DNA of 64,000 nucleotides from a virus. The translations under genes were made by a program, and so were the position numbers. Location: positions 1-64,000 of the IMG/VR virus record IMGVR_UViG_3300048837_000984. One strand, given 5' to 3'. The notes beneath the pieces are model-generated. The model made no database searches. It was not told the DNA's origin and was given only the letters and a program-made list of their open reading frames with translations. Position 1 is the stretch's first letter, and each line of letters begins with the position of its first letter. Positions 19,464-57,783 of the stretch are shown piece after piece.

Positions 19464-19496
19464 GATAGCTAAAAAAAGAGATCCAGATCGGATCTC
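19464..19496 (-). terminator. Intrinsic terminator followed by AGCTATC
   Basis: GAGATCC-N5-GGATCTC stem, T7 tract, then AGCTATC. Confidence 0.75.
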
Positions 19497-22749: not shown

Positions 22750-22808
22750 TCGCACGCACCTCCGTGTGCCTTTTTCGACCGGTTTCCGTCACCGGTCGAT
22801 AGTTGGGG

Positions 22809-38400: not shown

Positions 38401-39380
38401 GTATGATCGACTTCAAGGTCGAAGGTCTGGATCTCACCGATGGGATCGGAACCGACGAACCGCACTAGCGGTTTATCTGGCGAGTCCGCCAGAACAGCGG
38501 AGTATCGATAGTCCAGGTCGCCAAGAGCAACCATCTCTGGCTTGGCGCAACCGTCTGCCAGGGCAAGGATCTTGTGATCTTCCGTGGCATGAACCGTGAT
38601 CTCGTCTTCGAATCGGAAGCAACGGCACTTGCGGAGACCGTTGTCAAACTTGGCGACAACGGTAACGAACCCAGTGTTGCCGTTCATGTCCGCGCCAAGG
38701 ATCTTGTCCCCGGGTTTGACCAGGCAGATAGGGATGCTGAAGTAGTCCTTCAGAAACACCTTCTCATATGCAGCCAGGCAAAACTTGGTATCGACGACAC
38801 CTTTGCGAGCGCCGAACGATCCTGCAAAGTACTCGGCCGGCGACAGGCCTTCCGAGTAGCTCTTCAAAACTGGAATGGGTATAGGTCGGTTGTGGTGGTC
38901 CACGTACAGAAGGTCGCCTGCACGCAGAGAGCGCAAATTTGTCTTGTTACCGCGGGCTCCAGACAGGACCTGGTGCGCAAGCGGATTTCTCTCCAGGAGG
39001 CTCTCGTCGTAGACTCGGTTCTGGAGCGACTCCCCTTCCGACATCAGAAGGTCGACAACTTTCTGCTCTTTTTCTGTGTCAGAAAGGTCCGACCGATAGA
39101 TGTTGCCGATTTCCTTCTGCAACTTCATCTGAGCGGCCTTGGCAGCGATCGACCTTTTAAGGTGCTTGAGGCCAAACGAATTGCCACCAGTCGCATAAGA
39201 AACCTGAGAACCGATCTTGCTCAAGTCAAATACGATTTGCCGGTACTTGTCTGGATGCTTGGTTGCAACTTCCTGGAGAAGATCCTGAATGCCCTTCTTG
39301 TCAAGAATACGGTCGTACCTGCGCAAGTCAGGCGGAAGAACCTGGTTGACCAGCAGCTGTCCGACCGTAGTCTTGAGCAT
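35442..39380 (-). CDS. rpoC: RNA polymerase beta' C-terminal half (bridge helix, trigger loop) with three inteins (about 647 aa spliced)
   Basis: [34 protein letters not shown]|SKQ matches EGL..[51 protein letters not shown] matches the trigger loop [21 protein letters not shown]. Confidence 0.92.
   Translation of the reverse strand: [1312 protein letters not shown]
36387..37529 (-). mobile_element. Intein C (381 aa, LAGLIDADG) in the trigger loop
   Basis: CLAEGT.. [17 protein letters not shown] and [16 protein letters not shown]..IVSN before Ser. Confidence 0.92.
37905..38333 (-). mobile_element. Mini-intein B (143 aa) in the bridge helix
   Basis: CLAEGT.. ATVDHKIL.. TFDIEV..IVSN before Ser. 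Confidence 0.9.
38358..38780 (-). mobile_element. Mini-intein A (141 aa) in the bridge helix
   Basis: CLAAYE.. ATEDHKIL.. TFDLEV..TVSN before Ser. Confidence 0.9.
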
Positions 39381-39383
39381 TTC

Positions 39384-39626
39384 TCATTCCCTGTTCAGGT
39401 CCATGCGGTCGATGACGACGGTGTCGGCAATACCGCACATCTTCAGTTGAGCCAGGAAGTCCTTGTCGAGAGCGTGACTGGCTCGAATGTGTTCCCGGCC
39501 GTTGACTCGATCTTTTTGGTAAGTAATTGCAAAGGCGACTGGGTTACCCATGTCGTCTCGCACAAGCACACGGGTGGCCTCGACGACCAGTGGTTCGCCG
39601 AGGCCATTGTGAATCTCAAGCTTCAT
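39384..39626 (-). CDS. Small hypothetical protein between the RNAP genes
   Basis: 80-aa ORF, tightly packed. Confidence 0.6.
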   Translation of the reverse strand: MKLEIHNGLGEPLVVEATRVLVRDDMGNPVAFAITYQKDRVNGREHIRASHALDKDFLAQLKMCGIADTVVIDRMDLNRE

Positions 39627-39629
39627 GGA

Positions 39630-40418
39630 TTACGCCTTTTTGCGCCGGAGCATCAAAGCCACTGCGGCTGCCTTGGACATAATTTTTTTGTGATCCACTG
39701 GCGTCCCAATATTGGCCGCTGCCGCCTTTTCTCCGCCTCCACCGACGTCCCCACCAGGAGGCGTCGGGAAGGCGCCCTGAATGGGGCTGATGGGCGGAAT
39801 AGCGCTCTGGACTTGAGAAGCCCCTGGAGTCACGTCAGAACCACCGGACTCAGCCGTGGCTGGGGCTCCAGTCATCGGGTCGCGGTTAGGACCGTCGAGA
39901 ATGTCCATAGGCAGCTCGATGTTCTGCATTCGCAGGAAGTGCAGGAACATCTTCTTCAGCTGGAAGACGTCCGTGGCAATGGTGTTGATGTCTGGCTTGG
40001 GAGCCTTACCGCCCTTGCCGCCTCCCTGCGGGAGAAGGCCAGCAGCAGACAACTCGTCGCGGATCGCGCTACGGATGTCTCCACCGCCTCCGCCGCCACC
40101 TGCGGCTGGGTCGGGCGGGGGAGGTGGCGGAGGCGGCATCCCACCCATCATGGCTGGATCCATTGGCGGCATGCCCATCATCGAAGGATCCATCGGTGGT
40201 GCCCCGCCAGGAGGCATCCCACCCATCATGGCCGGATCCATGGGAGGAGCTCCACCAGGAGGCATAACCATCATTGAGGGATCCATCGGTGGTGCCCCAC
40301 CGGGCGGCATCCCGCCCATGGCCGCTGGATCGGCCGGCATAGCGCCACCAGGAGCGGGCACGAATGCTCGCTTCTGTCGTGCTTTAGCCATTTTGACCAG
40401 ATCTAAGTTGAGACCCAT
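39630..40418 (-). CDS. Pro/Met/Gly low-complexity protein with K-x-A motifs
   Basis: Repeats of PGGAPPMDP(A/S)MM; QKRAF, EKAAAA, SKAAA. Confidence 0.6.
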   Translation of the reverse strand: MGLNLDLVKMAKARQKRAFVPAPGGAMPADPAAMGGMPPGGAPPMDPSMMVMPPGGAPPMDPAMMGGMPPGGAPPMDPSMMGMPPMDPAMMGGMPPPPPPPPDPAAGGGGGGGDIRSAIRDELSAAGLLPQGGGKGGKAPKPDINTIATDVFQLKKMFLHFLRMQNIELPMDILDGPNRDPMTGAPATAESGGSDVTPGASQVQSAIPPISPIQGAFPTPPGGDVGGGGEKAAAANIGTPVDHKKIMSKAAAVALMLRRKKA

Positions 40419-40484
40419 CTTGCCCTTCCTTGGCTAGGAGACTCCGCTAGTGCGCTGTACGTCTGATTGTACAGCCAAGTGGCG

Positions 40485-43400
40485 TTAATGTTCCAGCACC
40501 GAAACCTGCTGGTCGATGTCGACGTTGTTGTTGTAGAACGCGCGGATGGCGTCCTTGACGGAAGCAAAAGTCTTTTGACTCTTCTGATTGTCAACCTGAG
40601 CGGTCGCAGCCCACAGACCGCCAACGTATTCCTGGCTCGGTTTGTAGGTGTCAGCCTTGAAGGTCCGGACAGAAAACAGGTTACGACTCGGCATCATCTT
40701 GGCAACCGCCTCGTCACGAGCTTCGTCAGTTGCCGGGACGTAGTAGTTGGAGGTGTTGGATAGAATGACACCGTCCGCCGCCATAAACGTTTCCGGACCC
40801 GGAACAGTCAGGTCGTAGCCGATCTCGACCTGACCTGTCTTCTCAAAGCTCTCGACTGGATCCCAAGTAATGTAGGTGTTCGCCACTACAGTACGCCAGG
40901 TATCCCATTCCGGATGGTCAACCTTACCGCCGGGAATGAACTCGACGATCTTCTCTGCGGCCAACCGAGTGATGTGGCCGGAACTCTTTGCGTCGTGAAA
41001 AGCCGAGTACATCCCGCCGTGACCCGGCAGCCAGGTCTTCCGTTCCTTATTCGGTTTCGGAATCGCCTTGCAGATGAGGTCAGCTATCGCGGTCGGAACA
41101 GGGACGACGTCGTGACGAGCAAGCGGTCCTGACATCTCTACAGGAGCCGATTCCAGCGCAGCTAGCTTGTTCGGATGGACCATGCCACGACCGCCCCACT
41201 GGTGAATGTCGTAGTTAGACGGCGACCAGACCCAGCACGGATTGCCTGCCGGGGTCTTGGAGTTCGTGATACGTCCTCGAATGCCAAGCGACAGCGCCAG
41301 TAGAGATACCTCTTGCGTCAAGCGGAGGCTAGTACTGGTTACATTAGCCATCAGTTGTGGCTTCTTCTTGGCTTTGGAAACCGAGATACTACCGTCGGTG
41401 TCCATAATGCCCGCGAACAGTCCCAGACGAAACTCCCTAGGAGCTTTCAAGAACCACACGGGCAGGTGCTTATACTGCGACTTTTGTCCGATCAACTCAG
41501 CAAGCATGCGTGCCAGGTGGGTGCTATTCCAAGTATGCCACTGGCTCTCTCCGTAGGATGTCTTCGACTCAGTTCGCAGACAAGCCGGTCTCTTGTCCGA
41601 AAACAGTCTGCCGATGATCTGGTCGACCTTGTCGACAATCGGCTGGGTAATGCCAGACAGAACGAACGCCTTGCGTTCCTCCGGTACCCAACCGTCTCCA
41701 GCAGCGCAACCGACAAGATAGCCAAGATCTTCGTTGATCGAAATGTTGTCGAACATTCCGAACTCTCTATTTGACGCGGCGTTGGCATAACCGACCGTTG
41801 CCAGACTGGTTACCGTTGGTTCTGGTCGAGATGCTTCCGGCATCTCGACAACACGCGGAACAAGGACTCGCGCCTCAACCGCTGCTGCCGGTCGAAACCT
41901 CTTGAGCTCGAGCGTCCCTGCCGCCACACCGTACACGGCTCGGGGGTCGTCGTCAGTAAAGATCTGTCGGCCAGATCGAAGATTGACGATTTCCACCGGA
42001 CAGCCGTGATGCTTAGACCAGCGTGAGACCTGAGTCCAGGTTAGCTGTCCGTCAGGTCCGTGCGACAGAACCTTGATGCCTTCAGGAACACGATACCACT
42101 CAATTCGACCAAACTGCCCCTTAGTCTCTTCGATCTGTTCCAGATGCGGGAAGTCCTCCAGGTTGAAAACATAGAGGTCGTCGTTGTTGTCCAGGGTTGG
42201 CAGACGCAGACCAGCTGAAAACGGCATTCGATGCTCCGCTAGATTGGATTGGTCGTTTACTACAATCCAGTCTATATTATTCAGGCAGGTCCTGTCAATA
42301 GAGGCAAAAACGATTCCAATCTGTTGATCTCCATCGAAGTCCATGCCGTAAGAGCCTACAATCGTGGGATTAACCTGCAACACATTGCTCTTCGTCAGCT
42401 TCGGCCAGAACGCCATCTCGCCGTAGCGGTGAAGCACTGGAGCCCGAGTTACGACCACAGGCCGAGAGTCGATCTCACTTAGCAAGGCCTTACGAGCAAT
42501 CTCGTCCCGGTTCTTGACGTACTGCAGGGCATTCACCCGGGAAACACCGTTCATAACCAGTCGGCGGATCACGAACGGGGTGTAGACAGCCCATGCTCGG
42601 TCTTCTGGCAGGCCAACCTCGTCCATGTTCAGGTCAGGGTTTGGTGCTACCACCGCTCGGCCAACCAGGTCCATGTTGGCGCCAAGAAGCTTGTACTGCA
42701 CAGTGCTATACTTCGGCGACGACCCAAAGACCTGCTGTAGCACGCCCTTGATCTTCTTCTCCTGGTTCTTGGGGGATATAGGGTCTCCAATACCAGTTAC
42801 ACCCTTGATAGCGTTGTAAAGCGTTACGCGCTCTTCGGCTGTGTCCGCAACCTGACCCTTGATGGCGTTCAGGTTCTCGTTGGCGTCCCAGGCCTCCTTG
42901 TACAGGTAGTTCACGTCCGACACCAGCTGACCGCCGGTTCCCTGCATGATGGAAACTGGGCGGAACATGGGCGGAAGAACTGGCAGCTTGTTGATCATCC
43001 ACTCGGACGGGTGGACTCCGGTCTTCTTGGCTGCCGCCAGGTAATTGAGTCGCTTAACCGCATCGCTCCGCAAGGTCTTCTTACCCGACCGAATGTCTTC
43101 CCGGGCCTGGGTAATGCCCTGGTCCAGGTTGATGGCCTTCAGTGCGTTGTAAATGGCTTCTGGGCCGGTTGTATCGCCAAGCTTCTCCTGACCGCCAAGA
43201 ACAGCTTCGAACTTCTTCTGGGTCAACCCCAGGAGTTTGCGGATGGGTTCCTCCATGACTGGAGAAGGCATCATCTCGTGGAGCTTGATATAACTCCAGC
43301 GGTTACCGCCATGTGAGCCGGTCAGGGTCGGGTCGAACAGACCGCCCTTGATTGGCTTCATGCCGTCCTTCCAGTCAACGGTTTCCACGTTCTGGAGCTC

Positions 43401-46400
43401 ACGGCCCTCCGCCATGGAGTCAACATCTTTGTCAGTGAGGGCCATCAAGTTGAGATGGCTACCATCACGCTGAACGTTGATACCGGAAGCCTTGAGGCTG
43501 TTGATGAACTTTTCGTAGACCTGTGGAGCCTTGGGAGTGGCCGGGCGGAAACCGCTCATGAACGAGGACCAGTACTCCTGGTTCTTCTGTCCACGAATCA
43601 GCTTTGCGTCCCGAAGGACCTCCGTTGCGCCAGAAGAGAGCAGGGCGTTGCAATCCATAAGCGCGAGTCGTTTACTGTTTGATACGAGAGTCCGGCCGGC
43701 ACAATAGTTGTGCGTCTTCTCCACAGTGAAGTCGTAGACGTTGGTCTCGACGACGTTCTTTTCTGGTACGTACGCTTTGATTTCTTTGATACGCAAAGGA
43801 ACCAACCCCAGCCGGGCATCTTTGTCGATCGGTATCACGGACTGGTTCTCTTGAATAGTCCGTACGGATTCAGCGAGGAATTTTTTGCTTGCTGGAATCA
43901 CTGACCACGGCACCCAGCGGGCGATTTCTTTGATCAATTGTCGGCATAACGCAGCCGATAGACACAAAGCCCCAACAGCGTTTACGGTGCAGGGTTCTTC
44001 ATATCGCCGAGACAGCCAGGTCGCTAGTTTCTTAGCCTCTTCTCGCGTAAATCCGTTTGTTGCGATGTTGCCCGTATAGTTAACGCATCCTTCTTTCTTG
44101 GCCCGGTTCGCTATGGACCCGTCGTCAAGAACCCAGACCGCGACACTCAAGCCTGATAGTTTTTCTAACCACGCGTCCGTAACTGTTTTCTTGCGCTTAA
44201 TTCCAGAGCAACAAGTTTCTGCCAGAGGTTCGAATATATGCCTCGAGCACAGAGACACAACAGAAGAAGCAGAAGACCTGACAATCTCACCACGAATACT
44301 GCAAGGTTGAATCCGAGACGGCCTATCGTAGATGCCGGCACCTAAGCTGGATAGGATTTCGTATTTCCATCGAAGGTATGCGTTTTGCTGAATACAGTGC
44401 TCAAATGTAAACGCACTTACGGATACAGATGAGTCACCGAGCATCGAACCATACATAAGCTCCCACTGGTGTTTAGTGGGTACCAACCCAGCTGTAGCCA
44501 GGTAGTCGCCGGTACGAAGCTCACCTATCGACACCTTCTCACCGGAAGGTCGGAATACTTCGTGATTTTTAGTCACGTGCATAGCCCGACCGTCGGATGT
44601 CTTCACGGTGACGAGGGCGGCTATATTGCAGCGACGAACAAACCAGTCTACGACTCGCCCGTAAGTCCACTCATTCTTTTCGAAGTCGTATGTCTTAACT
44701 TTGACGTTGAGTCTTTTTTCGCAAATCTTACTGATGCGAACAGGACCGTCAGTTGTTGCAATCAGCTGGCGTGGAGCGAAGCACTGTCCACCTTCACCGC
44801 CGCCTTTAGCTGGCATGCCCTCCGCGTTGTAACTGCCGAGACCGCGGCCTTGAGTTTTCGATTCACTGGTGTGATGAAGTTTGAGAATGAACTGGGATCC
44901 GGTAAGGATATCCTTGATATGGCGACCACTGACAGGATCGATCAGCGTCTCGGTATCTCGAATACCGTACTTCTCAGCTTCCTTCTGTGCGTAATCCGTC
45001 CAGTCCTGGACGTCTTCACTCCAGTCGAGAACCTTGTAAGGTTTGCCGGTTTTCGCAGCAACCTTCCCAAGAATGGTCTCAATAATCTGGCTGGGGTTAC
45101 CGCGAGAGATGACGCCCAGGGGGTTCAGAAGGATTTCCATAGCTTCGCCGGCTTCGTTGTGTGGCATCTCACCGTCTGGCACAACAGCCGCAACGATACC
45201 CTTACCGCCAAACCGATTGGCCAGCTTATCACCAACAACCAGCGGCGCGTAAGCCTTGACGGCTACGGTAATGCCCTTGGCTGTCTTGGCCACGTCTGTA
45301 ACAACACCCTCGTTGTGATGGTCCCAGACCACCGAACTATCTGAAAAGGATCCGCCGTGCGATGAGTGGACTTGTCGGTGCGAGACGTCGCGCTGCCGCG
45401 CCATGAGAATCAACGGGTCGCCTTCTTTGACGACAGTACCCGGCTTGATGACACCATCGTCGTCGATCTGGTCAAGAAGTCGACGTTCGTACTTGGTTGG
45501 GAAGATACTGACGAAGTTGTTCTTTCCTTTCTTGCTGCTCTTGTCGAACTCGACACCACTCTGGTACATGTTCTCGCTACTTAATTTTTTAGCAGCCGAC
45601 TCACTGACCACGATCGCGTCTTCGTAGTTCTGCCCACGGAAGCTGATGTAGCCAACCTTCAGGTTCTTACCGAGAGCTACCGTGCCGTTCTCGTCCGTGT
45701 TGTTGGAGCGGGCCAGGAGTTGCCCAGGTCGAACCGGGTCTCCTTCCTTGACAAGCGGAGTGCTGTGGGCAAAGGTCTTTCTGGCGTACGGGAAGTTGTT
45801 GTACAGGTCGTACGTCTTGGTCTCGCCGTCCTCGTACTGGACAGTGATCGAGTCGTTATCGGCTGCTCGGACGCGACCTAACTTGTCAGCGGCGCGGACA
45901 GCCCCAAGGTACTGTCCGTAGTGCTCCTCAAAGCTGGTGTTCGGTTTGCCGGGCATACCCGATTGAACCAGCGGCGCTTCCGGATCCCGAAGCGGTAGAG
46001 CCTGGGTCAAGAAGCGGCTACCCATAGCCACGCGCTGGCCCTTGCTCGATCCCTTGAGTGGGATCATGTTTGCCAAGGGACTAAACGCATTTTCAAAATG
46101 GGGCATGACCAGCTGAACGCTCTCACGCGGCACCATCTTGGTCTGGCCGTTGACCATGGCCACGACGTGTTCCTTGCCACTCCCCATTTCGTTGGGGAAG
46201 GCGATGACGAAGTCGCTAACTTCTTGAGGCGATCGCCAAATCTCTTCACCATTCGGAGTCAAGAACTTGGCGTAGACCTTGTTGTCGGAGCCCTTGCGTG
46301 TGCTAAAGGCCAGGCGGCTGTCGACACCTGCTTTCAAGGATTCCGGGGTACGGATCGTGTCGATGTAACCCAGCTGAGACGGATGGACTGAACGAGCCTC

Positions 46401-48017
46401 ATCTGGGATTGAATCCATGGAATTACCGGACCAGTGACACTTACCGTTTCGTCGGACATAAAGCAAACCACCCGGTACGCTGGCGCAATAGACCTTGGCG
46501 TTATAGTCTTCGATAAAGAACGGATTGCTCTCTGTCGTTCTGGCGACAAGAGCCGTCTCTTTGCCATCTTGACTCACCAAGGCGGTAAACGTGTTGCCGT
46601 GAACCTCTTGCGCCTCTCGAAACATATAACTGCCGGAGGGCTCGAACGACCCGTATACCCGGTGACAGGGCGTAACCAGGTAATCTACCCGGTCGGTCGA
46701 CACTCCGAACATAGGTCCGCGGTAATCGTTTACGTGTAGCGCTGAAGCTTCCTCAAAAACTAGCTCACCGTTAACGTGACAAGCGAACCTTGTGTCTGCG
46801 GTTACTTCCGTCCAGGAAACCCAACCTTTATCGGTAAGAACATCTGTGTCGGCTGAATAGCAGGGAATACCTCCAACACCCATTCGGCTGACCCGGGTCT
46901 GCTGGTCCAGGATCTCAGCCGTGTTGATCTCTTCCAGACCTTGAGCCAATCCGCTGTCGTAGATGGCCGAATTGACCTGCTTGGTTAAAGCATTCGGCTG
47001 GATTGCGTCCAGATTGTTCTTGTACGTGGCTTTCCACAGAAGCTGGTTAAGGGCGTTTCCGGCTCGACTGACTCTCTCAGCAAACAGGTCTTCTGGGCCA
47101 AGAAAGTTCTGGAAAGCCAGATGGTCACGGTCGTCAGGGTCGGCCTGTGCTCTGGAGACGTCCAGTAGCTTCCGGGTCGCTGCCAGAGCGACGGTCTTGT
47201 CCAGGTTACGGTACTTCTGGCCCAGTGTTCGCGAAGTAACCTCTGGGTCAAACTCCATCTTTTGCATGGCAGCCGCGATGGCTTGTTGCTTTTCCTGGAA
47301 GCTGGCTTTGGGGTTGCCTCGCTTGACCAGCCTGGCGTAAATCTTGTCGATGACCTTGGGGTCGTCCTTGAGCGCATTTGCAGCGTACAGATCCTGACCC
47401 CAGGCCTCCTTCATCTCCTTGTCGGTCACACCCAGTGCGCGCATGACCGGAACCAGCGGCATGTGCGACTGGTCAATGTTGATCTTGAAAATACCCGTCT
47501 CCGGATCCAGGAAGTAGCGGTGTGACAGGCCCTTGCCCGGCATGACGTTGAAGTGTGACTCGACTTCACCGTTTTCCTTGACGCGAGTAAAGACGCCAGG
47601 CCGCAACCGCATCTGGTTGATAAGCGCGTATTCGGTGCCGTTCATGATGAACGTGCCCCGAGGCGTAAGGAACGGAACCTGGGCTACGGTAGACTTCTTC
47701 TCAGCTACCGGATTGCCGGCCGGATCCGTTAACCGCCAGGTACCACGAATACGCCGACTCAAGGTGGTACCAGAAAGGATGGCTTCCTTCTGCTTCTTGA
47801 GCGGATACTCTTCCGGGTCTTCGTAGTTCAAGTCGGCCAGACTCAGCTGGTACCTGGAGTTGGAAACCGGCTTTAGGCTACGAAACGAGTTCAGGACATT
47901 GTCGTAGATCGCGCGGCGAGTGGCGGTCACGTCTGTGAAGTCTCTCATGGTCAACGGTTTGACCGGAGAGAGGACTTCCTTGTCCTTGTCCTTGTCGTCA
48001 TCCAGGACGCTGATCAC
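40485..48017 (-). CDS. rpoB: RNA polymerase beta fused to the beta' N-terminal half, with three inteins (about 1470 aa spliced)
   Basis: Beta motifs GTFIMNGTE, VHPSQLG..TPES, GQNYEDAIVVSE, GDKLANRFGGKG, LNPLGVISRGN; then beta' motifs GGLFD, LPVLPP.FRP, LLG...D..GRAV, RAPVLHR and catalytic DFDGD. Confidence 0.95.
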   Translation of the reverse strand: MISVLDDDKDKDKEVLSPVKPLTMRDFTDVTATRRAIYDNVLNSFRSLKPVSNSRYQLSLADLNYEDPEEYPLKKQKEAILSGTTLSRRIRGTWRLTDPAGNPVAEKKSTVAQVPFLTPRGTFIMNGTEYALINQMRLRPGVFTRVKENGEVESHFNVMPGKGLSHRYFLDPETGIFKINIDQSHMPLVPVMRALGVTDKEMKEAWGQDLYAANALKDDPKVIDKIYARLVKRGNPKASFQEKQQAIAAAMQKMEFDPEVTSRTLGQKYRNLDKTVALAATRKLLDVSRAQADPDDRDHLAFQNFLGPEDLFAERVSRAGNALNQLLWKATYKNNLDAIQPNALTKQVNSAIYDSGLAQGLEEINTAEILDQQTRVSRMGVGGIPCYSADTDVLTDKGWVSWTEVTADTRFACHVNGELVFEEASALHVNDYRGPMFGVSTDRVDYLVTPCHRVYGSFEPSGSYMFREAQEVHGNTFTALVSQDGKETALVARTTESNPFFIEDYNAKVYCASVPGGLLYVRRNGKCHWSGNSMDSIPDEARSVHPSQLGYIDTIRTPESLKAGVDSRLAFSTRKGSDNKVYAKFLTPNGEEIWRSPQEVSDFVIAFPNEMGSGKEHVVAMVNGQTKMVPRESVQLVMPHFENAFSPLANMIPLKGSSKGQRVAMGSRFLTQALPLRDPEAPLVQSGMPGKPNTSFEEHYGQYLGAVRAADKLGRVRAADNDSITVQYEDGETKTYDLYNNFPYARKTFAHSTPLVKEGDPVRPGQLLARSNNTDENGTVALGKNLKVGYISFRGQNYEDAIVVSESAAKKLSSENMYQSGVEFDKSSKKGKNNFVSIFPTKYERRLLDQIDDDGVIKPGTVVKEGDPLILMARQRDVSHRQVHSSHGGSFSDSSVVWDHHNEGVVTDVAKTAKGITVAVKAYAPLVVGDKLANRFGGKGIVAAVVPDGEMPHNEAGEAMEILLNPLGVISRGNPSQIIETILGKVAAKTGKPYKVLDWSEDVQDWTDYAQKEAEKYGIRDTETLIDPVSGRHIKDILTGSQFILKLHHTSESKTQGRGLGSYNAEGMPAKGGGEGGQCFAPRQLIATTDGPVRISKICEKRLNVKVKTYDFEKNEWTYGRVVDWFVRRCNIAALVTVKTSDGRAMHVTKNHEVFRPSGEKVSIGELRTGDYLATAGLVPTKHQWELMYGSMLGDSSVSVSAFTFEHCIQQNAYLRWKYEILSSLGAGIYDRPSRIQPCSIRGEIVRSSASSVVSLCSRHIFEPLAETCCSGIKRKKTVTDAWLEKLSGLSVAVWVLDDGSIANRAKKEGCVNYTGNIATNGFTREEAKKLATWLSRRYEEPCTVNAVGALCLSAALCRQLIKEIARWVPWSVIPASKKFLAESVRTIQENQSVIPIDKDARLGLVPLRIKEIKAYVPEKNVVETNVYDFTVEKTHNYCAGRTLVSNSKRLALMDCNALLSSGATEVLRDAKLIRGQKNQEYWSSFMSGFRPATPKAPQVYEKFINSLKASGINVQRDGSHLNLMALTDKDVDSMAEGRELQNVETVDWKDGMKPIKGGLFDPTLTGSHGGNRWSYIKLHEMMPSPVMEEPIRKLLGLTQKKFEAVLGGQEKLGDTTGPEAIYNALKAINLDQGITQAREDIRSGKKTLRSDAVKRLNYLAAAKKTGVHPSEWMINKLPVLPPMFRPVSIMQGTGGQLVSDVNYLYKEAWDANENLNAIKGQVADTAEERVTLYNAIKGVTGIGDPISPKNQEKKIKGVLQQVFGSSPKYSTVQYKLLGANMDLVGRAVVAPNPDLNMDEVGLPEDRAWAVYTPFVIRRLVMNGVSRVNALQYVKNRDEIARKALLSEIDSRPVVVTRAPVLHRYGEMAFWPKLTKSNVLQVNPTIVGSYGMDFDGDQQIGIVFASIDRTCLNNIDWIVVNDQSNLAEHRMPFSAGLRLPTLDNNDDLYVFNLEDFPHLEQIEETKGQFGRIEWYRVPEGIKVLSHGPDGQLTWTQVSRWSKHHGCPVEIVNLRSGRQIFTDDDPRAVYGVAAGTLELKRFRPAAAVEARVLVPRVVEMPEASRPEPTVTSLATVGYANAASNREFGMFDNISINEDLGYLVGCAAGDGWVPEERKAFVLSGITQPIVDKVDQIIGRLFSDKRPACLRTESKTSYGESQWHTWNSTHLARMLAELIGQKSQYKHLPVWFLKAPREFRLGLFAGIMDTDGSISVSKAKKKPQLMANVTSTSLRLTQEVSLLALSLGIRGRITNSKTPAGNPCWVWSPSNYDIHQWGGRGMVHPNKLAALESAPVEMSGPLARHDVVPVPTAIADLICKAIPKPNKERKTWLPGHGGMYSAFHDAKSSGHITRLAAEKIVEFIPGGKVDHPEWDTWRTVVANTYITWDPVESFEKTGQVEIGYDLTVPGPETFMAADGVILSNTSNYYVPATDEARDEAVAKMMPSRNLFSVRTFKADTYKPSQEYVGGLWAATAQVDNQKSQKTFASVKDAIRAFYNNNVDIDQQVSVLEH
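40755..42326 (-). mobile_element. Atypical intein (524 aa, LAGLIDADG) inserted directly after DFDGD, starting with Gln
   Basis: DFDGD|QQIGIVF...LVGCAAGDG, FAGIMDTDG...GYDLTVPGPETFMAADGVILSN|TSNYYVP. The downstream extein aligns to QMAVHVP..EA..EA..LM. Confidence 0.8.
43677..44783 (-). mobile_element. Intein (369 aa, LAGLIDADG) near the beta C-terminus
   Basis: CFAPRQ.. VTKNHEV; YGSMLGDS and VWVLDDGS; VYDFTVE..LVSN before Ser; sampled lines about 42-43% GC. Confidence 0.92.
46422..46862 (-). mobile_element. Mini-intein (147 aa) in beta
   Basis: CYSADTDVLTDKGW.. VTPCHRV.. VYCASVPGG..RRNGK..SGN before Ser. Confidence 0.9.
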
Positions 48018-52173: not shown

Positions 52174-52208
52174 GATAGCTAAAAATTGGACCGGCATACA
52201 CCGGTCCA
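52174..52208 (-). terminator. Intrinsic terminator followed by AGCTATC
   Basis: TGGACCGG-N6-CCGGTCCA, ATTTTT, then AGCTATC. Confidence 0.7.
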
Positions 52209-52235: not shown

Positions 52236-52275
52236 GAGTTCATTGTATATTGTCTCACATTTGCCGATAATTTAG
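52236..52275 (-). promoter_or_regulatory. Tripartite phage promoter-like motif
   Basis: CTAAATT-N16-CAATATA-N3-TGAACTC. Confidence 0.55.
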
Positions 52276-54389
52276 TCGGACTCCTGTTCGAGACGCCAGC
52301 GTCGCTCCTCTTCCAGTTCTTTCTTCTGGCGATTATTCCACCAGCTACGCAGAGCCATTGCTGCCGCAGCGGCACCGCCGACGCCCAGAGCACCGAGACC
52401 CCACTGAGTTGGACCCCATTTGGTTACGTCGAACATAGAAGGCGCGTTCTCTTCGGCTTTTTGCTTGGCCCTTATTTCTAGCGATCGTTTGCGCTCGGCG
52501 GTCTCTTCTATCCGCGATCTATCGTTGAGTGCCTCCTGATGCTCTCTGTCCGCCCTGTCAACTTCTTGTTTAGCCAGCCTCGCCGCTTCCTGGGCGTCTG
52601 CCGCCCGCTGGGCGTCTACTTCGCGTTGGTCCCGGAAAGCCTGTTCAAACGGCCACACAGCGCTTGTCCAAGGCTCGTCCTTTGGCGGAGCTACATCTGG
52701 CCTGTACTTGTGCCACTCCGACTCCAGGGGCGGTTCTCGAAAAGTTGGTTTTGGTGCAAACGTGTTGAGATCCTCTTGGGGAATATTTTCGAATCTCAAG
52801 AAGCCATAACGGTTGGGTGGGTTAGGCAGTTCGGCTGCCCTTCCCCGCAATTTGTACCGCCCAGCCCAATCAATCTCGTAAAGCTTCGTAAATGCGTGTG
52901 GTAGATAGAGCTTCTGTAGGCCCTTGGCCAGCGGCAGCGAAGCCACCGACTTTATCGGACTGCCGTACGTTTTTTCTACCTCGGCCAGGAATCCCGGCTG
53001 CTCGCTCGATGAGTCGCCAACAACGCTCTTGACTGCGTCCAGCAGGGGTTGCTGGTTTTCTTTCCGTTTATTGCGTAAGAACGTCTCAAGTTCTTCTTGT
53101 TTCTCGTTAACATCTCTAGTCCGGTAGTCCCGCTTGTCGACGTAACGATGGCTGCTGAAAGGAATATAAGGGTTCTTCGCCCACTGGCCGAGTGGCGTTA
53201 AATTTCTAGCCCACTGACGCAGGTTTAGAAGGTTCTGCCGCACTTGTTTCGAGTGAGTCAGTCTGGTCTCAAAATCTATCTTTCCCGACAGTCGTTCCAT
53301 GAGGCTTGGCGGCAGGTCTAGCGGGGAGTCCGGCCAATACGAAGCGGAGCCGCCGCCCTGGGCGAAGTGATACTTATCCAGCTCGGGCTCCGCTTCCGCC
53401 TCGGCGGTTGGAATGCGTGGCTTACTTGGCGGTTTTCTTGACCAGAAAAAGGCCTGCTTTTCCTCTTGCTCCACTTCCTTATACATCTTTCTGAGTTGTG
53501 CCTCTGTTCTTGGTCCAGCCGGCACGGGGGTTATTTGAGCCTCCTTCTTCCGAAGAGAGACAGAGTCGGGCAGCTTCTTCTTCGGAATGTGGATCCGGAA
53601 CCTGGTCGGCCTGTGCGTAAGGCCAACCTCGCGACCTTCCTGAGAGTCGATATCGAACTCTTCCAGCTTCATTCTCAAGAGCTTCTGCAAAAGAGAATGC
53701 TTCTCTCCATAGTTGCCCCGGTCCGATTCCTTCTTGGCTCGAATGAGATCGTCAAGAACAGAGCCCTGTTTCGGCACCCTGAGTACTCCTTGTACAGGCG
53801 TGACCGCCGGATCATAAGCAGGTGTAGTTGTGTCAACAGCTCGCGTGGCGTCTCGTTGCATAGCCTTGGGGAAGTTTTTGGCGATCTCCTGTGGCACAGG
53901 TAGCTTCGCCCCAGGTGACTTCATGCGCAGAAAATAAGTGCTCCCGTCGCCATAGGTGGGCAGCGGCTCTGGCTTTGGTCCCAGGCCCAGCCGGTGAAGG
54001 ATGTGACGAAGCGGTTGCTTGGCCATATCTGTCGCGGCACTTAAAGAATAAGTCGGCCTGGCCTCAATACTCGGCTGCTTGATGAACTTCTGTAAAGACT
54101 TCCACCCGGCGGGGGTGTAGTTCATGGGGAGATCGGTACCAGTCCAACCGCCGGGCAACCGCTTCAGGATCTCGCCAGTAAACTTGTTGTTCAGGTTTAG
54201 TTTCTGAAGAGACGGGTGGATATAGCGGTAGGAAAATGAGGGCGTGCCGCTAGGTCCCCCTGGCTTCAGGTTGGCGTATCCGACCAGCTTGTCCTTCATG
54301 AACAGGCCAAAGCCGTTGCCACCTTGCATTGGGCGGACACTGAACCGCTGACGGAAACTGATGGCGTCCTTGTCCATAGCTTCACTCAC
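52272..54389 (-). CDS. Modular K-x-A-linked protein with N-terminal GNAT-like module and C-terminal TM anchor
   Basis: LVGYA..YIHPSLQKLNLNNKF (GNAT motif-A-like); borders DKDA, KQGS, KEAQ, EKQAF; C-terminal GLGALGVGGAAAAAMAL. Confidence 0.5.
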   Translation of the reverse strand: MSEAMDKDAISFRQRFSVRPMQGGNGFGLFMKDKLVGYANLKPGGPSGTPSFSYRYIHPSLQKLNLNNKFTGEILKRLPGGWTGTDLPMNYTPAGWKSLQKFIKQPSIEARPTYSLSAATDMAKQPLRHILHRLGLGPKPEPLPTYGDGSTYFLRMKSPGAKLPVPQEIAKNFPKAMQRDATRAVDTTTPAYDPAVTPVQGVLRVPKQGSVLDDLIRAKKESDRGNYGEKHSLLQKLLRMKLEEFDIDSQEGREVGLTHRPTRFRIHIPKKKLPDSVSLRKKEAQITPVPAGPRTEAQLRKMYKEVEQEEKQAFFWSRKPPSKPRIPTAEAEAEPELDKYHFAQGGGSASYWPDSPLDLPPSLMERLSGKIDFETRLTHSKQVRQNLLNLRQWARNLTPLGQWAKNPYIPFSSHRYVDKRDYRTRDVNEKQEELETFLRNKRKENQQPLLDAVKSVVGDSSSEQPGFLAEVEKTYGSPIKSVASLPLAKGLQKLYLPHAFTKLYEIDWAGRYKLRGRAAELPNPPNRYGFLRFENIPQEDLNTFAPKPTFREPPLESEWHKYRPDVAPPKDEPWTSAVWPFEQAFRDQREVDAQRAADAQEAARLAKQEVDRADREHQEALNDRSRIEETAERKRSLEIRAKQKAEENAPSMFDVTKWGPTQWGLGALGVGGAAAAAMALRSWWNNRQKKELEEERRWRLEQESD

Positions 54390-57300
54390 TTGGTTGGCGG
54401 CGTTGGCTGAAACTCGTTAACTCGTTTTTGTCTAGCCTGTCCGATCTCGTTCGCGTGCGGTTGCAGCGACGGCGGCAACTTCAACTGGTTGACAGGCCCA
54501 GCACCAAGCTGATCCATCGGGACGGCGCCAAAGCCCTGAGCAGCCAGCGACGTAAACGGCGTGCTCGGCTGCGCTTCCTGGAGCGTGTCCGAGATACGCT
54601 GGATCCAGTCCGTCTGGCCAGCGTGTGCCATCTGACCCTGTAGTCGGCCCTCAAAGTCAGCATCCGAGGTTGCCGCATCACCGGCCCTGAGGATATCCGG
54701 CCGGTGGGCAGAGAGCAAACCGATGGTGTTCCTGTACGGCTTAAACCGCGGGTCCGACTGGATCGTCTGGTCCAGATTCGTCAGCGAAGTGTGCGCTAGC
54801 TCGCTCAGACCGTTCGGCCCGAGCTGTCGAGCGACGTCTGGGTGAGCCTGCGCCAATTGTGCAGCCAGATTCTGGACAAGGTCCTTCCTGGATCCCGTCA
54901 GAGCGTCGTGCGGCAGTGAAGTCAGCATCTTCGACATGGACTGGATAAGGGGAGCGATTACCTGAGCCTGTTGTGGACCGACGATGCCCGCCGCAGACAG
55001 TGTGGGAATCATGCCCTGACCCAGGTAGTTCTGCATCACCGGCATAACCTCGACTTCGCGCTGTGAATTCCGCACGATATCGGTCAGGCCGTTCTTGTAG
55101 ACGTACTCCTGGTTAACCTGCTGCGATCGGAACTGGTTCCAGGCCGCTCCCGGAGATACGCCCGACTGCTGCAAAAGCGCAACCCACTGTTGCGCGTTTA
55201 CCGTACCCAGGGAAGTTCCGTCTGGCATCACTGGTTTGCCAGCCCGGATGTTGTCCGCGATCTGGGCTGCCGGAGTACCGGGCCGAATGAGGCCGGCGTC
55301 TTCCAAGGCCAATGTTGCACCCATGATGTTGGCCATGGGACTGTTCGACGCAGAAGTTCTCAGTCTCTGGTCGAGGTCGACCGCATCGTCCATCGTTAAG
55401 CCGTTGAAGCCTTGTCGTCCGGCAAACTGTCCGAAAGCACGACCAAAAGCCGCGGCGCCCGGAGCCGTTCTGGACGCAAAGAGCCTCGGCAGTCCCGCTG
55501 ACTGGGCCACGTCTCCCCCATGTCCAATCAGCGAGAACAGCCTCGGCAGCCCACCAGGGGTGGATTTGGCCAGGTTGTGCAGCTGCCGAACCTGCTGCGA
55601 CACCTGCTGCGGATCCAGATTGGACAGCTGCCCCTGGGTCAACTTCTCCAGGATGTCCATCCCTTCCCCGGCAGAGAAGGCCAGCTTGATCGGACCTTTA
55701 CCTTTGCGCAGACAAGTGCGGCAGAACAACCAACCCTTCTTGTCCTTGTAAATGTGTTCCTTCTTCAGGGCCTTGTCGCAGTGCGGGCAAATGTGATGCT
55801 CGTTGCCTTCATCGTCACAGCCCATCTCCGCTTGGGTGTGAACAGCACCCTGTTTGGGCATGTGTTCAGCCATCATATCCCTCGCAGCCGCAAATGGTTG
55901 CGACAACGAAGACAGCCGGTCTGCGGTCTGCTCTGGCGACATGGGTGTCTGGGAAGACAACAGACCTCGATCACTGGCGTTGGAATAGATGTCGCTCATC
56001 TGCGAAGCAGAAAACCCGGAAGTGTCCGCACGGTTGGCGTTTGGTCCGTACAGCCTGGAGAAGATTCTCTTGGCAGTACTCGTAGCGTCATCTGCGGATA
56101 TCCCTCGCTGACCGGTGATTGGATCTCGGAGCGTCTTGGCTGTACGGAAGACCTGGCTGCCAAGGCTCGCCGCGGACCCACGCCAGCCGTGCAGGCGGTC
56201 CCACAGCTGCGGCGCGAACATCCGAATGTATGGAGCGATGGTCGAGATGTCACCGGAGGCTGAATCAATAGCCCGCTGCATCTCTGGGTTCTTGTCCGGA
56301 TTGGAACCGGCTAACCGAGCCAGACCAGATAGCATGCGCCGATACGTACCTCGGTCTTCTGACATGGCTCCGGTGGTAGCCTGCCAGTCGCCAGTGTAGG
56401 TACGCATGTTGCTCAGGCGATCCGAAACGTTACCGGCGCCTGGGGCATACAGGAGGCCGTGTTGAGCTGCCCAGTTGTTGATGAATGGGTTGACAATCAT
56501 CTGCTGCAGGACAGGCAGGAAGCTGCCGAACTGATCGACCATGGCAGCCTTTTCCAGCGAGTCTTTCGTCCCGAATGGCGGCGCCCCAGAAGTACTCTCT
56601 CCGAAGTAGGGCTTGTCCTTATAGGTGAAGTAGAAGCTGTCACCAAGAGTCTTGGGCAGGTCGTGGTAGTTAACCGTAACTTCGTCACCAGCCTGGATGG
56701 CTTTCTTGGCTATCAAGGCGACCGTGTCGTCCGGGTTCTTGCGGATGTCTGCGTTTGGCTCATCGGAATGGTTACAGTAACGGGCTTCGTCCGTTTCGTC
56801 GTAGCAGTCTAGATGGAACTGACCTTCCTTGGGAACCAGGCAGACCGGAACAATGACGTCGTCTGGACTAAATTTTTTAGTCGCAAAGATGCCCTTGCCG
56901 TCTATCTCAGATGGTTTGATCTCGACTCCTGGGCCTTCGTCCGAAGCCTTCTTGGTATCGTTGGCCTGGAGGACGCCCTTGCGTCGGACGGCGATCGTAA
57001 TGTGGAAGTCGAACTTGTTGTTGTTTGGTCTGGCCGACAAGCCGTAGCTCTTGCGCAACTTCTCCAGTTCCGGCGAAGTCACCTCAATGAACCAGCACTT
57101 ACTGATGTTTTCCCAACCGGAAGGGTTGGTGGACCGGACCGGCCCAGTAGTGTAGCGGAACGTGTGGCCCCGCTCGGAAATCTTGGACGGACCACCAATG
57201 GCCTCAACTTCGTCCGGGCGCATGACCGTAATGTGTGCGTTGAAGGCGCCGCCATTGTAGCCGGGAGGTAGTTCAATACCGGGGACGTGTAGTGCGTCAA

Positions 57301-57559
57301 AAGCACCGCGAGCAACGGCGTTGGGGACGCTGAGAAGGCACCAACCGTCTGCGGACATGTAAAGCCGCCCGGCCATGTCGTAGCTCAGGTCGGCCGCTAC
57401 TTTCTTGTGCGCTGGCTTAACGGTAAGCTTCGCCTCGCTCGCCTTATACAGTGGATCCCAATGAATTACGAACGGCTCTTCTTGGCGAGAAACCGGCGTG
57501 TCGACGGCGATGCCGTCCAGGATGCTCTGAGACCGGTTGTTTTCAGCCATCTTTCCCAT
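54386..57559 (-). CDS. Modular protein: 2H-phosphoesterase, SET domain, tape-measure-like helical region with a Zn-finger insert
   Basis: AHITV and FHITI (two HxT motifs); GKGIFATK..RYCNHS.EPN..A.K.I..GDEVTVNY (SET); CPHC..CRTC. Confidence 0.7.
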   Translation of the reverse strand: MGKMAENNRSQSILDGIAVDTPVSRQEEPFVIHWDPLYKASEAKLTVKPAHKKVAADLSYDMAGRLYMSADGWCLLSVPNAVARGAFDALHVPGIELPPGYNGGAFNAHITVMRPDEVEAIGGPSKISERGHTFRYTTGPVRSTNPSGWENISKCWFIEVTSPELEKLRKSYGLSARPNNNKFDFHITIAVRRKGVLQANDTKKASDEGPGVEIKPSEIDGKGIFATKKFSPDDVIVPVCLVPKEGQFHLDCYDETDEARYCNHSDEPNADIRKNPDDTVALIAKKAIQAGDEVTVNYHDLPKTLGDSFYFTYKDKPYFGESTSGAPPFGTKDSLEKAAMVDQFGSFLPVLQQMIVNPFINNWAAQHGLLYAPGAGNVSDRLSNMRTYTGDWQATTGAMSEDRGTYRRMLSGLARLAGSNPDKNPEMQRAIDSASGDISTIAPYIRMFAPQLWDRLHGWRGSAASLGSQVFRTAKTLRDPITGQRGISADDATSTAKRIFSRLYGPNANRADTSGFSASQMSDIYSNASDRGLLSSQTPMSPEQTADRLSSLSQPFAAARDMMAEHMPKQGAVHTQAEMGCDDEGNEHHICPHCDKALKKEHIYKDKKGWLFCRTCLRKGKGPIKLAFSAGEGMDILEKLTQGQLSNLDPQQVSQQVRQLHNLAKSTPGGLPRLFSLIGHGGDVAQSAGLPRLFASRTAPGAAAFGRAFGQFAGRQGFNGLTMDDAVDLDQRLRTSASNSPMANIMGATLALEDAGLIRPGTPAAQIADNIRAGKPVMPDGTSLGTVNAQQWVALLQQSGVSPGAAWNQFRSQQVNQEYVYKNGLTDIVRNSQREVEVMPVMQNYLGQGMIPTLSAAGIVGPQQAQVIAPLIQSMSKMLTSLPHDALTGSRKDLVQNLAAQLAQAHPDVARQLGPNGLSELAHTSLTNLDQTIQSDPRFKPYRNTIGLLSAHRPDILRAGDAATSDADFEGRLQGQMAHAGQTDWIQRISDTLQEAQPSTPFTSLAAQGFGAVPMDQLGAGPVNQLKLPPSLQPHANEIGQARQKRVNEFQPTPPTK

Positions 57560-57750: not shown

Positions 57751-57783
57751 GATAGCTAAAAAAGAGACCCGGTTAGGGGTCTC
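57751..57783 (-). terminator. Intrinsic terminator followed by AGCTATC
   Basis: GAGACCC..GGGTCTC stem, T tract, then AGCTATC, just after the 57790 stop. Confidence 0.8.

What the first reader, a model, noticed from the sequence alone, without database searches (positions are those of the whole stretch)
54386..57559. Four-module protein: 2H phosphoesterase, SET methyltransferase and Zn finger on a tape-measure-like body, each bounded by K-x-A/G
Seen: the 2H domain (about 56953-57394; AHITV, FHITI) starts after KKVAA and ends at KKAS. The SET domain (about 56555-56940; GKGIFA, NHS.EPN, GDEVTVNY) ends at EKAA. A CPHC..CRTC insert (about 55690-55845) sits between KQGA and KLAF. Known: phage 2H phosphoesterases of the Acb1/gp57B type degrade cyclic-nucleotide defence signals; SET domains are protein lysine methyltransferases and are uncommon in phages. 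Inference: an injected cocktail of anti-defence and host-modifying enzymes released by cleavage from a structural carrier.
Basis: partly seen in the sequence, partly recalled or inferred. Interest (0 to 1): 0.75.

Follow-up and report, generated by a model that had tools for sequence, protein, structure and literature searches.

The report
Phage virion carrier with swappable enzymes
A 194-kb uncultured phage encodes a 1,057-residue protein that joins a 2H phosphoesterase, a small SET lysine methyltransferase and a zinc-ribbon insert to a previously undescribed helical virion-type protein, and the joints carry a Lys-x-Ala motif that looks like this phage lineage's head-protease cutting signal; the idea of an injected multi-enzyme protein is already known, but this carrier, the SET cargo and the motif are new details.

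Summary
Pfam calls 2H-SAK (residues 101-194, E 9e-12) and SET (248-298, E 1.8e-10). AlphaFold gives a confident 2H fold, and every top structural match is a 2H enzyme. The Zn insert occurs in only 3 of 137 relatives.

The body is not tape-measure-like. It folds as a compact all-helical protein (pLDDT 91.6, pTM 0.86) and belongs to a large uncultured-phage family (738 clusters) with no Pfam, PHROG or PDB match. A profile comparison links it to gp4 of Salmonella phage Arash (hhalign 86%, E 5e-6; controls 0.2% or less). Gp4 has the second-highest spectral count in Arash virions.

K-x-A is not over-represented in this protein overall, but it is concentrated in the linkers (6 of 17 linker Lys against 1 of 32, p 0.005). 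It is conserved at module borders in orthologues that gain or lose modules there, and it is enriched in head-assembly proteins here and in Arash.

Best reading: a virion-packaged polyvalent protein of the Iyer/Aravind type, probably cut in trans at K-x-A. Cleavage, injection and substrates are untested.

An overlapping window of this scan noted the same stretch.

The parts
54386..57559 (-). Whole gene, 1057 aa (P0001): leader, 2H, SET, helical core with Zn insert
   Evidence: ORF list and translation; orthologues P0002-P0004
57392..57559 (-). N-terminal leader, residues 1-56, ending in K52-K-V-A-A56; candidate propeptide or targeting segment
   Evidence: Disordered or single helix in the AF2 model. 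A similar 'K-x-A-A-D' lies about 10 residues before the 2H domain in nearly all 2H-SAK homologues
56954..57391 (-). 2H phosphoesterase domain (2H-SAK), residues 57-202; catalytic H109-I-T and H186-I-T
56927..56953 (-). Linker 1, residues 203-211, with K203-K-A-S
   Evidence: pLDDT below 50 over 200-225; the Lys column is conserved right after the 2H domain in homologues
56645..56926 (-). Minimal SET domain, residues 212-305 (GKGIFA; NHSDEPN; GDEVTVNY)
   Evidence: Pfam PF00856, E 1.8e-10; PDB sequence matches to SETD8, EZH2, ASH1L and vSET with all three motifs aligned; the AF2 model of this part is poor
56528..56644 (-). Linker 2, residues 306-344, with E336-K-A-A
   Evidence: pLDDT below 50 over 300-345; K-x-A lies 3-10 residues before the core start in P0001, P0002, P0003, P0023, P0055, P0160 and P0165
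55856..56527 (-). Helical core, region 1, residues 345-568
   Evidence: Family of 738 clusters; region mapping; AF2 pLDDT above 90
55676..55855 (-). Zn-ribbon insert, residues 569-628 (CPHC..CRTC), flanked by K569-Q-G and K625-L-A
   Evidence: Present only in P0001, P0002 and P0003 of 137 members; the family median is 0 Cys; four short strands, lower pLDDT, and flanks that coincide with the two segments below pLDDT 50; a similar CPHC..W..C..KG module occurs in P0011, P0012 and P0018
54470..55675 (-). Helical core, region 2, residues 629-1030
   Evidence: the junction of regions 1 and 2 aligns with Arash gp4 residues 238-421
54386..54469 (-). Short C-terminal tail, residues 1031-1057, plus the stop codon; in relatives this is the site of C-terminal extensions of 0-1300 aa
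57764..57783 (-). Terminator-like hairpin plus T-run upstream of the gene; start of a two-gene unit
52272..54389 (-). Co-transcribed neighbour, 705 aa, overlapping the stop of P0001 by 4 bases. It is modular: a module of about 75 aa (residues 201-280) is shared with the C-termini of P0023 and P0005. It also has a hydrophobic Gly/Ala stretch near its C-terminus
52187..52208 (-). Terminator-like hairpin plus T-run closing the two-gene unit

Best explanation
P0001 is a phage 'polyvalent' virion protein. Its conserved compact all-helical core belongs to a large family of uncultured-phage proteins that is distantly related to gp4 of Salmonella phage Arash, an abundant virion protein. In this lineage the core has acquired an N-terminal leader, a 2H-SAK phosphoesterase, a minimal SET lysine methyltransferase and an internal Zn-ribbon insert.

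The modules are joined by flexible linkers that carry the lineage's K-x-A motif. The same motif is concentrated in the scaffold-like head-assembly proteins and near the N-termini of head-block proteins, including the major capsid protein. The simplest reading is that a head maturation protease cuts there in trans, as T4 gp21 does at L/I-x-E and phiKZ/SPN3US proteases do at A-x-E. The enzymes would then be released as separate polypeptides inside the capsid and enter the cell with the DNA and the virion RNA polymerase.

Once inside, the 2H enzyme would hydrolyse 2',3'-cyclic or 2'-5' phosphodiester substrates, either immune signalling nucleotides or damaged RNA ends. The SET enzyme would methylate a lysine on a host or phage protein.

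Shown here: the domain identities, the family, module shuffling at K-x-A linkers, the distribution of the motif, and the link to Arash gp4. Inferred: packaging of this protein, cleavage, injection and substrates.
For: Domains:
- Pfam 2H-SAK and SET score above their cut-offs.
- The 2H fold is confident and matches only 2H enzymes at the top of the list.
- The SET motifs align to solved SET enzymes.

Carrier:
- 738 clusters; no Pfam, PHROG or PDB relative.
- AF2 pLDDT 91.6, pTM 0.86.
- hhalign of the family profile against Arash gp4 plus Vibrio phage D69 gp4: probability 86%, E 5e-6, 182 columns. Reversed and ten shuffled controls gave 0.2% or less.
- Gp4 is the only outlier among 34 Arash ORFs of 300 aa or more.
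- Arash virion mass spectrometry: gp4 has 1952 spectra, second only to RNAP beta (PMC10585845).

Lineage: the MCP matches phage G gp27 (E 1.7e-8) and the Arash MCP. Gene order is shared with Arash.

Modularity: the same core carries 2H, SET, 2H+SET, 2H+P-loop kinase, 2H+DUF5661 or an InPase-like unit, and the borders fall at K-x-A. 2H-SAK and SET also sit on SNF2/InPase polyvalent proteins next to a fused RNAP gene in a 213-kb contig.

Motif:
- Linker-specific in P0001 (p 0.005).
- 10 observed against 2.4 expected, 16 against 5.5, 12 against 4.2 and 9 against 3.2 in four head-block proteins.
- Present within the first 40 residues in 12 of 22 proteins encoded at 21-58 kb against 23 of 177 elsewhere (p 2.7e-5).
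- The same enrichment occurs in Arash gp220, gp222, gp223 and gp225, and K-x-A is aligned at MCP residues 26-28 in both phages.

Concept: Iyer et al. 2017 (PMC5512222); SPN3US head processing (PMC10052503).
Against: - No protease could be identified. The intein-bearing ORF 25233-28589 that earlier notes call the prohead protease has no protease Pfam hit and no PDB sequence match. Peptidase_S77 and Peptidase_S78 are absent from this genome, Arash and D69.
- K-x-A is not enriched in P0001 as a whole. Only two of its sites (KVAA, KKAS) carry the small residue after Ala that I counted by eye in about two thirds of the head-block sites listed.
- The wider core family lacks Lys in its leader and has no K-x-A before the core, so the motif is clade-specific.
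- Cutting on both sides of the Zn insert would split a core that is predicted to fold as one unit.
- The gp4 link rests on a partial profile alignment at 86%. The Arash proteome lists 116 'virion' proteins, including metabolic enzymes, so detection there is not strict proof of packaging.
- In a related contig (L005) the core gene lies in a different place, next to tail/baseplate-type genes and a sigma factor. Head versus tail location is therefore open.
Confidence: 0.45

Rival explanations
1. The protein is a virion component but is not cleaved. It acts as one multidomain chain. The K-x-A tripeptides are a conserved linker feature with another role, such as a docking or targeting peptide that travels with each module.
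For: The motif flanks the 2H-SAK domain in very different proteins, so it could be part of an extended domain boundary. No protease was found. N4 vRNAP-type polyvalent proteins are packaged whole (PMC5512222). The core is predicted as a single fold even across the Zn insert.
Against: The sites fall in segments of low model confidence rather than in the fold. The motif is densest in scaffold-like proteins and at N-termini of head-block proteins, which is the pattern of known head-protease substrates. Module insertions are bracketed by duplicated sites.
Confidence: 0.25
2. The protein is not packaged. It is a cytoplasmic multi-enzyme made during infection, for example for RNA end-healing or signal clearance plus protein methylation, and the helical core is a scaffold or regulatory domain.
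For: There is no direct evidence of packaging in this phage. The 2H-SAK plus P-loop kinase fusion in relative P0055 resembles RNA end-healing enzymes. The gene forms its own two-gene unit between terminator-like hairpins.
Against: The core is related to an abundant Arash virion protein. No RNA ligase was detected in the genome with PF09414; the PF09511 scan also found nothing, but its control did not ring, so that scan is uninformative. The gene lies in the block whose proteins share the N-terminal K-x-A feature.
Confidence: 0.2
3. The body is the tail tape measure (or another tail-lumen protein), and the enzymes are delivered from the tail.
For: In contig L005 the core gene follows homologues of baseplate-region genes. 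The weak BFVD Foldseek rows are mostly tape-measure or internal virion proteins.
Against: The model is a compact globular helical fold (pTM 0.86) with helices of 32 residues or fewer. There is no tape-measure Pfam hit. The core has a constant length across the family and only its appendages vary. The BFVD matches have TM of 0.3 or less and rmsd of 12 A or more. In this genome the gene lies far from the tail module at 1-20 kb.
Confidence: 0.05

Closest known systems
Phage-type polyvalent proteins (Iyer, Burroughs, Anand, de Souza, Aravind 2017, PMC5512222)
   Same: Several unrelated conflict-type enzyme domains sit in one phage polypeptide. 2H phosphoesterase is one of the listed phage-specific domains. 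These proteins are predicted to be packaged, injected with the DNA and processed into units. The 2H-SAK homologues found here sit with SNF2, InPase, NUDIX and C39 peptidase domains.
   Different: The carrier is neither MuF, portal, N4 vRNAP nor DarB-like; it is a helical family with no Pfam or PHROG model. SET is not mentioned in that paper (0 occurrences). No in-cis MPTase or other peptidase is present, so processing would have to occur in trans at a lineage-specific K-x-A motif.
Head-packaged, protease-processed ejection proteins of T4 (IPs, Alt; gp21, L/I-x-E) and phiKZ/SPN3US (gp175/gp245, A-x-E)
   Same: A short tripeptide motif is shared by the capsid protein, scaffold-like proteins and internal or ejected proteins. 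N-terminal propeptides are present, scaffold regions carry many sites, and the virion packages an RNA polymerase.
   Different: The motif here has Lys and Ala instead of a C-terminal Glu. No S77- or S78-type protease is detectable. The sites would separate whole enzyme modules rather than only remove propeptides. Nothing has been shown experimentally.
Viral 2H phosphodiesterases: Acb1 (T4 gp57B, phage FBB1), coronavirus ns2, rotavirus VP3, penguinpox cGAMP PDE; cellular LigT, CPDase and Usb1
   Different: By sequence the domain belongs to the separate Pfam family 2H-SAK. Acb1, LigT, CPDase, Usb1 and ns2 tie within one Z unit, so the substrate class cannot be inferred. The domain is part of a large fusion protein rather than a small free enzyme.
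Minimal SET methyltransferases (PBCV-1 vSET) and secreted bacterial SET effectors (Legionella RomA, Chlamydia NUE; the latter two named from my own knowledge)
   Same: A SET core of about 100 residues with the GxG, NH..PN and E..Y motifs. The idea of an enzyme delivered into the target cell is shared.
   Different: It occurs in a bacteriophage, fused to a virion-type carrier. The target is unknown and there are no pre- or post-SET Cys clusters. The fold is not confidently modelled here.
Salmonella phage Arash gp4 and Vibrio phage D69 gp4
   Same: They are distant homologues of the helical core. They come from the same phage lineage by MCP, RNAP, terminase, portal and sigma factor. Gp4 has the second-highest spectral count in Arash virions.
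   Different: Arash and D69 have no 2H-SAK or SET anywhere in their genomes. Only about 180 columns align, and the function of gp4 is unknown.

Membership tests
2H phosphoesterase superfamily (Pfam 2H-SAK, PF22547) | Two H-x-[TS] catalytic motifs | tested here: met
   H109-I-T and H186-I-T; both His columns are nearly invariant in 20 homologues
2H phosphoesterase superfamily (Pfam 2H-SAK, PF22547) | Profile score above the curated cut-off | tested here: met
   45.8 bits against 27; 50.3 bits in the own-genome scan
2H phosphoesterase superfamily (Pfam 2H-SAK, PF22547) | 2H fold | tested here: met
Acb1 (anti-CBASS nuclease) family | Specific sequence or structure relationship to Acb1 beyond the general 2H fold | tested here: inconclusive
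   7t27 ranks first but ties within 1 Z with LigT, CPDase, Usb1 and ns2; the Pfam family is 2H-SAK
Acb1 (anti-CBASS nuclease) family | Hydrolysis of cyclic oligonucleotide signals | not testable with these tools
   Needs an enzyme assay
SET-domain lysine methyltransferases (PF00856) | Profile score above the cut-off and the GxG, NH..PN and E..Y motifs | tested here: met
   41.6 bits against 22.4; motifs aligned to SETD8 and EZH2
SET-domain lysine methyltransferases (PF00856) | Knot-like SET fold | tested here: inconclusive
   AF2 pLDDT 28-55 over residues 200-345 with a shallow alignment; only weak SETD8 and Set7 Foldseek rows
Phage polyvalent proteins (Iyer et al. 2017) | Two or more unrelated conflict-type domains in one polypeptide of a phage, with variable architectures among relatives | tested here: met
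   2H + SET + Zn insert + core; relatives swap in 2H, SET, kinase, DUF5661, InPase and SNF2
Phage polyvalent proteins (Iyer et al. 2017) | Packaged in the virion and delivered with the DNA | tested here: inconclusive
   Only indirect: the core is distantly related to the abundant Arash virion protein gp4
Phage polyvalent proteins (Iyer et al. 2017) | Frequent in-cis peptidase (MPTase) for self-processing | tested here: not met
   No peptidase domain in P0001. This is a common feature of the class, not an obligatory one
Tail tape measure proteins | Extended, mostly helical chain; tape-measure profile; gene inside the tail module | tested here: not met
   Compact fold with pTM 0.86; no tape-measure Pfam or PHROG hit; the tail module lies at 1-20 kb
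Substrates of a prohead maturation protease | Shared short motif enriched in MCP, scaffold and internal proteins, at N-termini and in exposed segments | tested here: met
Substrates of a prohead maturation protease | Demonstrated cleavage and an identified protease | not testable with these tools
   No protease family was detected; needs proteomics

The most novel reading that the evidence does not exclude
Arash-type large phages, which package their own RNA polymerase, may use an undescribed head protease with a Lys-x-Ala code. A dedicated helical virion carrier (the gp4 family) would then serve as a plug-in platform. Enzyme cassettes (2H phosphoesterase, SET methyltransferase, P-loop kinase, pyrophosphatase, Zn module) would be inserted between K-x-A linkers, cut loose in the capsid and injected. 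On this reading a bacteriophage would deliver a SET lysine methyltransferase into its host at the moment of infection.
Probability: 0.3. Interest if true: 0.75.

Novelty: new variant of a known kind. Interest (0 to 1): 0.55.

Why it matters
If the reading holds, it gives three testable things.

1. A new protein family that is widespread in uncultured phages (738 clusters at 50% identity) would be identified as a virion carrier for exchangeable enzymes.
2. There would be a candidate cleavage code (K-x-A) for a phage lineage whose head protease is unknown. The code can be checked directly in the cultured relatives Arash and Vibrio phage D69.
3. It would be a rare case of a SET lysine methyltransferase, together with a 2H phosphodiesterase, apparently delivered by a phage. 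That points to protein methylation as an early takeover or counter-defence step.

The general concept of polyvalent, packaged, processed proteins has been in the literature since 2017. The gain is therefore in the particulars, not in the principle.

Tried and rejected
- GenBank phages: tblastn of P0001 and of the distant family member P0033 found no match.
- The word-indexed search with the body alone returned only the two close orthologues.
- ESM Atlas gave no usable hit.
- The IMG/VR scan with the orthologue alignment found no relative other than the phage's own record.
- PDB profile search of the body returned only designed helical repeats.
- Fold searches of the body (Foldseek against PDB and BFVD, VIA wide, VIA second look) gave no match above background. 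The nominal top rows, T7 core protein 9jyy_I and 'internal virion protein C', have TM 0.08 and did not reappear among the VIA second-look rows, so I dropped the T7-ejectosome lead.
- The 1046-aa gene next to P0005 in L002 is not a core homologue.
- HMMER with the family profile does not see Arash gp4; only profile-profile comparison does.
- Arash supplementary files hold protein sequences only, with no peptide lists, so cleavage could not be read from them.
- Phage G MCP is essentially full length in the solved capsid (282 aa gene, 280 aa chain), so it says nothing about an N-terminal cut.
- The idea that the SET domain acts on the K-x-A lysines is not needed: Arash shows the same motif pattern but has no SET.
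- Pfam and PHROG scans of about 35 neighbouring proteins were almost all empty.
- I did not use complex prediction, the look-up of sequencing runs or read laying, because no claim here depends on them.
Full report
**What is there**

The minus-strand ORF 54386-57559 encodes 1057 residues. Pfam gives 2H-SAK (residues 101-194, E 9e-12, 45.8 bits against a cut-off of 27) and SET (248-298, E 1.8e-10, 41.6 against 22.4). Nothing else is credible, and there is no tape-measure family hit. PHROGs gives only two weak families of unknown function.

The genome is a complete 193,694-bp IMG/VR virus record with direct terminal repeats. An overlapping window of this scan had noted the same stretch.

**The enzyme modules**

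- **Substrate hints.** A relative fuses 2H-SAK to a P-loop kinase, which recalls RNA end-healing. No RNA ligase was detected in this genome with PF09414. The PF09511 scan also found nothing, but its control did not ring, so it is uninformative. Iyer et al. proposed RNase or signal-degrading roles for polyvalent 2H domains (PMC5512222).
- **SET module.** It is poorly modelled. Its GxG, NH..PN and E..Y motifs align with SETD8, EZH2, ASH1L and PBCV-1 vSET.
- **Zn segment.** It has four short strands. It is a true insertion: only P0001, P0002 and P0003 of 137 family members have it, and the family median is zero cysteines. In P0002 and P0003 the second pair reads H-x-x-C. A similar CPHC..W..C..KG unit occurs in other 2H-SAK proteins.

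**The body**

- **Family.** An exhaustive phmmer search with residues 345-1057 found 738 clusters at E 0.001 or better, 129 of them at 1e-30 or better. The typical member has, in order:
  - a Lys-free leader of about 40 residues;
  - region 1 of about 200 residues;
  - a variable linker of 50-300 residues, which is where the Zn insert sits;
  - region 2 of about 400 residues;
  - a C-terminal extension of 0-1300 residues.
- **No annotation.** No member's core matches Pfam or PHROGs.
- **Fold.** With 74 sequences AlphaFold gives pLDDT 91.6 and pTM 0.86, with about 35 helices of 32 residues or fewer. This is a compact fold, not an extended tape measure.
- **Structural relatives.** None was found.

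**Lineage and virion link**

- **MCP.** ORF 21823-22755 is the major capsid protein. It matches phage G gp27 in 6wkk (E 1.7e-8). Its closest cultured relatives are Salmonella phage Arash and Vibrio phages D69, D181 and D148 (28-29% identity).
- **Shared genes.** Arash shares terminase, portal, both RNAP genes, a sigma factor, baseplate-region genes and the orthologue (gp222) of the intein-bearing ORF 25233-28589.
- **Arash proteomics.** RNAP beta gave the most spectra, gp4 came second (1952 spectra, 60 peptides), and beta', sigma and a helicase were also found in particles (PMC10585845).
- **Core and gp4.** HMMER does not connect the core to Arash. Profile-profile comparison does. Family profile against gp4 alone gives score 35.9, while all 33 other Arash ORFs of 300 aa or more score 21.1 or less. 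With the D69 homologue added, probability is 86% and E is 5e-6 over 182 columns. Reversed and ten shuffled controls gave 0.2% or less.
- **Accessory status.** Arash and D69 have neither 2H-SAK nor SET. Those modules are therefore accessory cargo on a conserved virion-type carrier.

**The K-x-A question**

*Within P0001.*
- Counted over the whole protein the motif is at chance level.
- Its placement is not random. Six of 17 linker Lys are K-x-A against one of 32 in folded parts (p 0.005), with equal Ala content in both. I set the linker limits partly by judgement.
- The two sites flanking the Zn insert fall at or next to the only two core segments with pLDDT below 50.

*In orthologues.* They differ by whole modules exactly at these linkers:
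- P0002 starts at ..TKVAAD and then runs into SET.
- P0003 is the body alone, starting shortly before VKAA.
- P0004 and P0160 join 2H to the core through QKTA or AKQA.
- P0002 has an InPase-like insert between KAAGV and KQAGV, where P0003 has a single KVAGV.

*In other 2H-SAK proteins.* Nearly all 2H-SAK homologues on other carriers have K-x-A-A-D before the domain and a conserved Lys just after it.

*Genome-wide.*
- The excess of K-x-A sits in four head-block proteins: 10 observed against 2.4 expected, 16 against 5.5, 12 against 4.2 and 9 against 3.2.
- By my own count of the sites listed, about two thirds of these are followed by a small residue.
- K-x-A occurs within the first 40 residues in 12 of 22 proteins encoded at 21-58 kb against 23 of 177 elsewhere (p 2.7e-5).

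*In Arash.* The same pattern appears in gp220, gp222, gp223 and gp225 just upstream of the MCP. The MCP N-termini of both phages carry K-x-A at aligned residues 26-28.

This is the signature of head-protease substrates in T4 and in phiKZ/SPN3US (PMC10052503).

Caveats:
- No protease family is detectable here.
- The wider core family lacks the motif.
- No peptide-level data are available.

**Context**

- **Transcription unit.** P0001 and the 705-aa gene that overlaps its stop codon lie between two terminator-like hairpins, each followed by TTTTTAGCT.
- **Neighbour.** It carries a module of about 75 residues that is also found at the C-termini of P0023 and P0005.
- **213-kb contig L002.** 2H-SAK, SET, InPase and SNF2 are fused in one protein about 10 kb upstream of a fused RNAP gene.
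- **L001.** The gene after P0002 is an SNF2 helicase that begins V-K-A-A.
- **L005.** The core gene sits between homologues of baseplate-region genes and a sigma-factor block. Head or tail residence therefore remains open.

**Verdict**

This is a polyvalent protein of the kind defined by Iyer et al. 2017. It is built on a new carrier family and carries an unusual SET cargo. Its module borders coincide with a lineage-specific motif that is best explained as a head-protease site acting in trans. Packaging, cleavage, injection and substrates remain inferences. I rate it a new variant of a known kind, interest 0.55.

Noticed in passing
window 52177-52185, 57754-57762, 19467-19475 (all -) and 20606-20614 (+): The 9-mer TTTTTAGCT occurs 4 times against 0.23 expected. 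At two sites it directly follows a terminator-like hairpin. It may be a conserved terminator tail or part of a phage promoter.
   Followed up: partly
window 52272-54389 (-), residues about 201-280: A module of about 75 aa (..AKKESDRGNYGEKH..LTHRPTRFRIH..) in the neighbour gene recurs at the C-terminus of core-family member P0023 and of the 2H/SET/InPase/SNF2 protein P0005. It is also seen in several other 2H-SAK proteins. There is no Pfam hit. The neighbour also ends in a hydrophobic Gly/Ala stretch followed by a charged tail.
   Followed up: partly
L001:10741-11784: The gene after orthologue P0002 is an SNF2-type helicase that starts V-K-A-A-A. It appears to have an intein inserted at the Walker A motif (..GLGSGKC..). 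Its homologue in this genome is at 136576-142221.
   Followed up: no
window 25233-28589 (-): Earlier notes call this ORF the prohead protease. It shows only intein, Hint and LAGLIDADG Pfam hits and no protease family. Its C-extein (residues 742-891) is 38% identical to Arash gp222, a 'structural protein'. Its C-terminal 300 residues hold 11 K-x-A sites and look scaffold-like.
   Followed up: partly
window 35442-48017 (-): The gene at 40485-48017 encodes a fused RNAP beta plus the N-half of beta', with inteins and LAGLIDADG domains; Pfam was run on this gene only. By tblastn both this gene and 35442-39380 match Arash RNAP genes. In Arash the RNAP subunits are among the most abundant proteins in virions, so this RNAP is probably packaged too. 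Neither RNAP protein here has K-x-A in its first 40 residues.
   Followed up: partly
genome 170277-171473 (+), outside the window: A plus-strand 398-aa ORF has 13 K-x-A sites against 2.7 expected, the strongest enrichment in the genome. Its function is unknown.
   Followed up: no
genome 120763-122670 (-) and 165941-167800 (+), outside the window: The portal (Arash gp204 homologue) and the large terminase (Arash gp1 homologue) lie far from the capsid/scaffold block at 21-35 kb, so the head genes are dispersed. Contig L005 is collinear with window 119-10312 joined to genome 187-193.7 kb. That fits a circularly permuted or terminally redundant map.
   Followed up: partly
A1 alignment, C-termini of P0002 and P0003: The orthologues end in a conserved peptide VND.LYFA.YDPTEF.L that P0001 lacks. 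It follows a K-x-A-G-V site and could be a docking or targeting tail.
   Followed up: no
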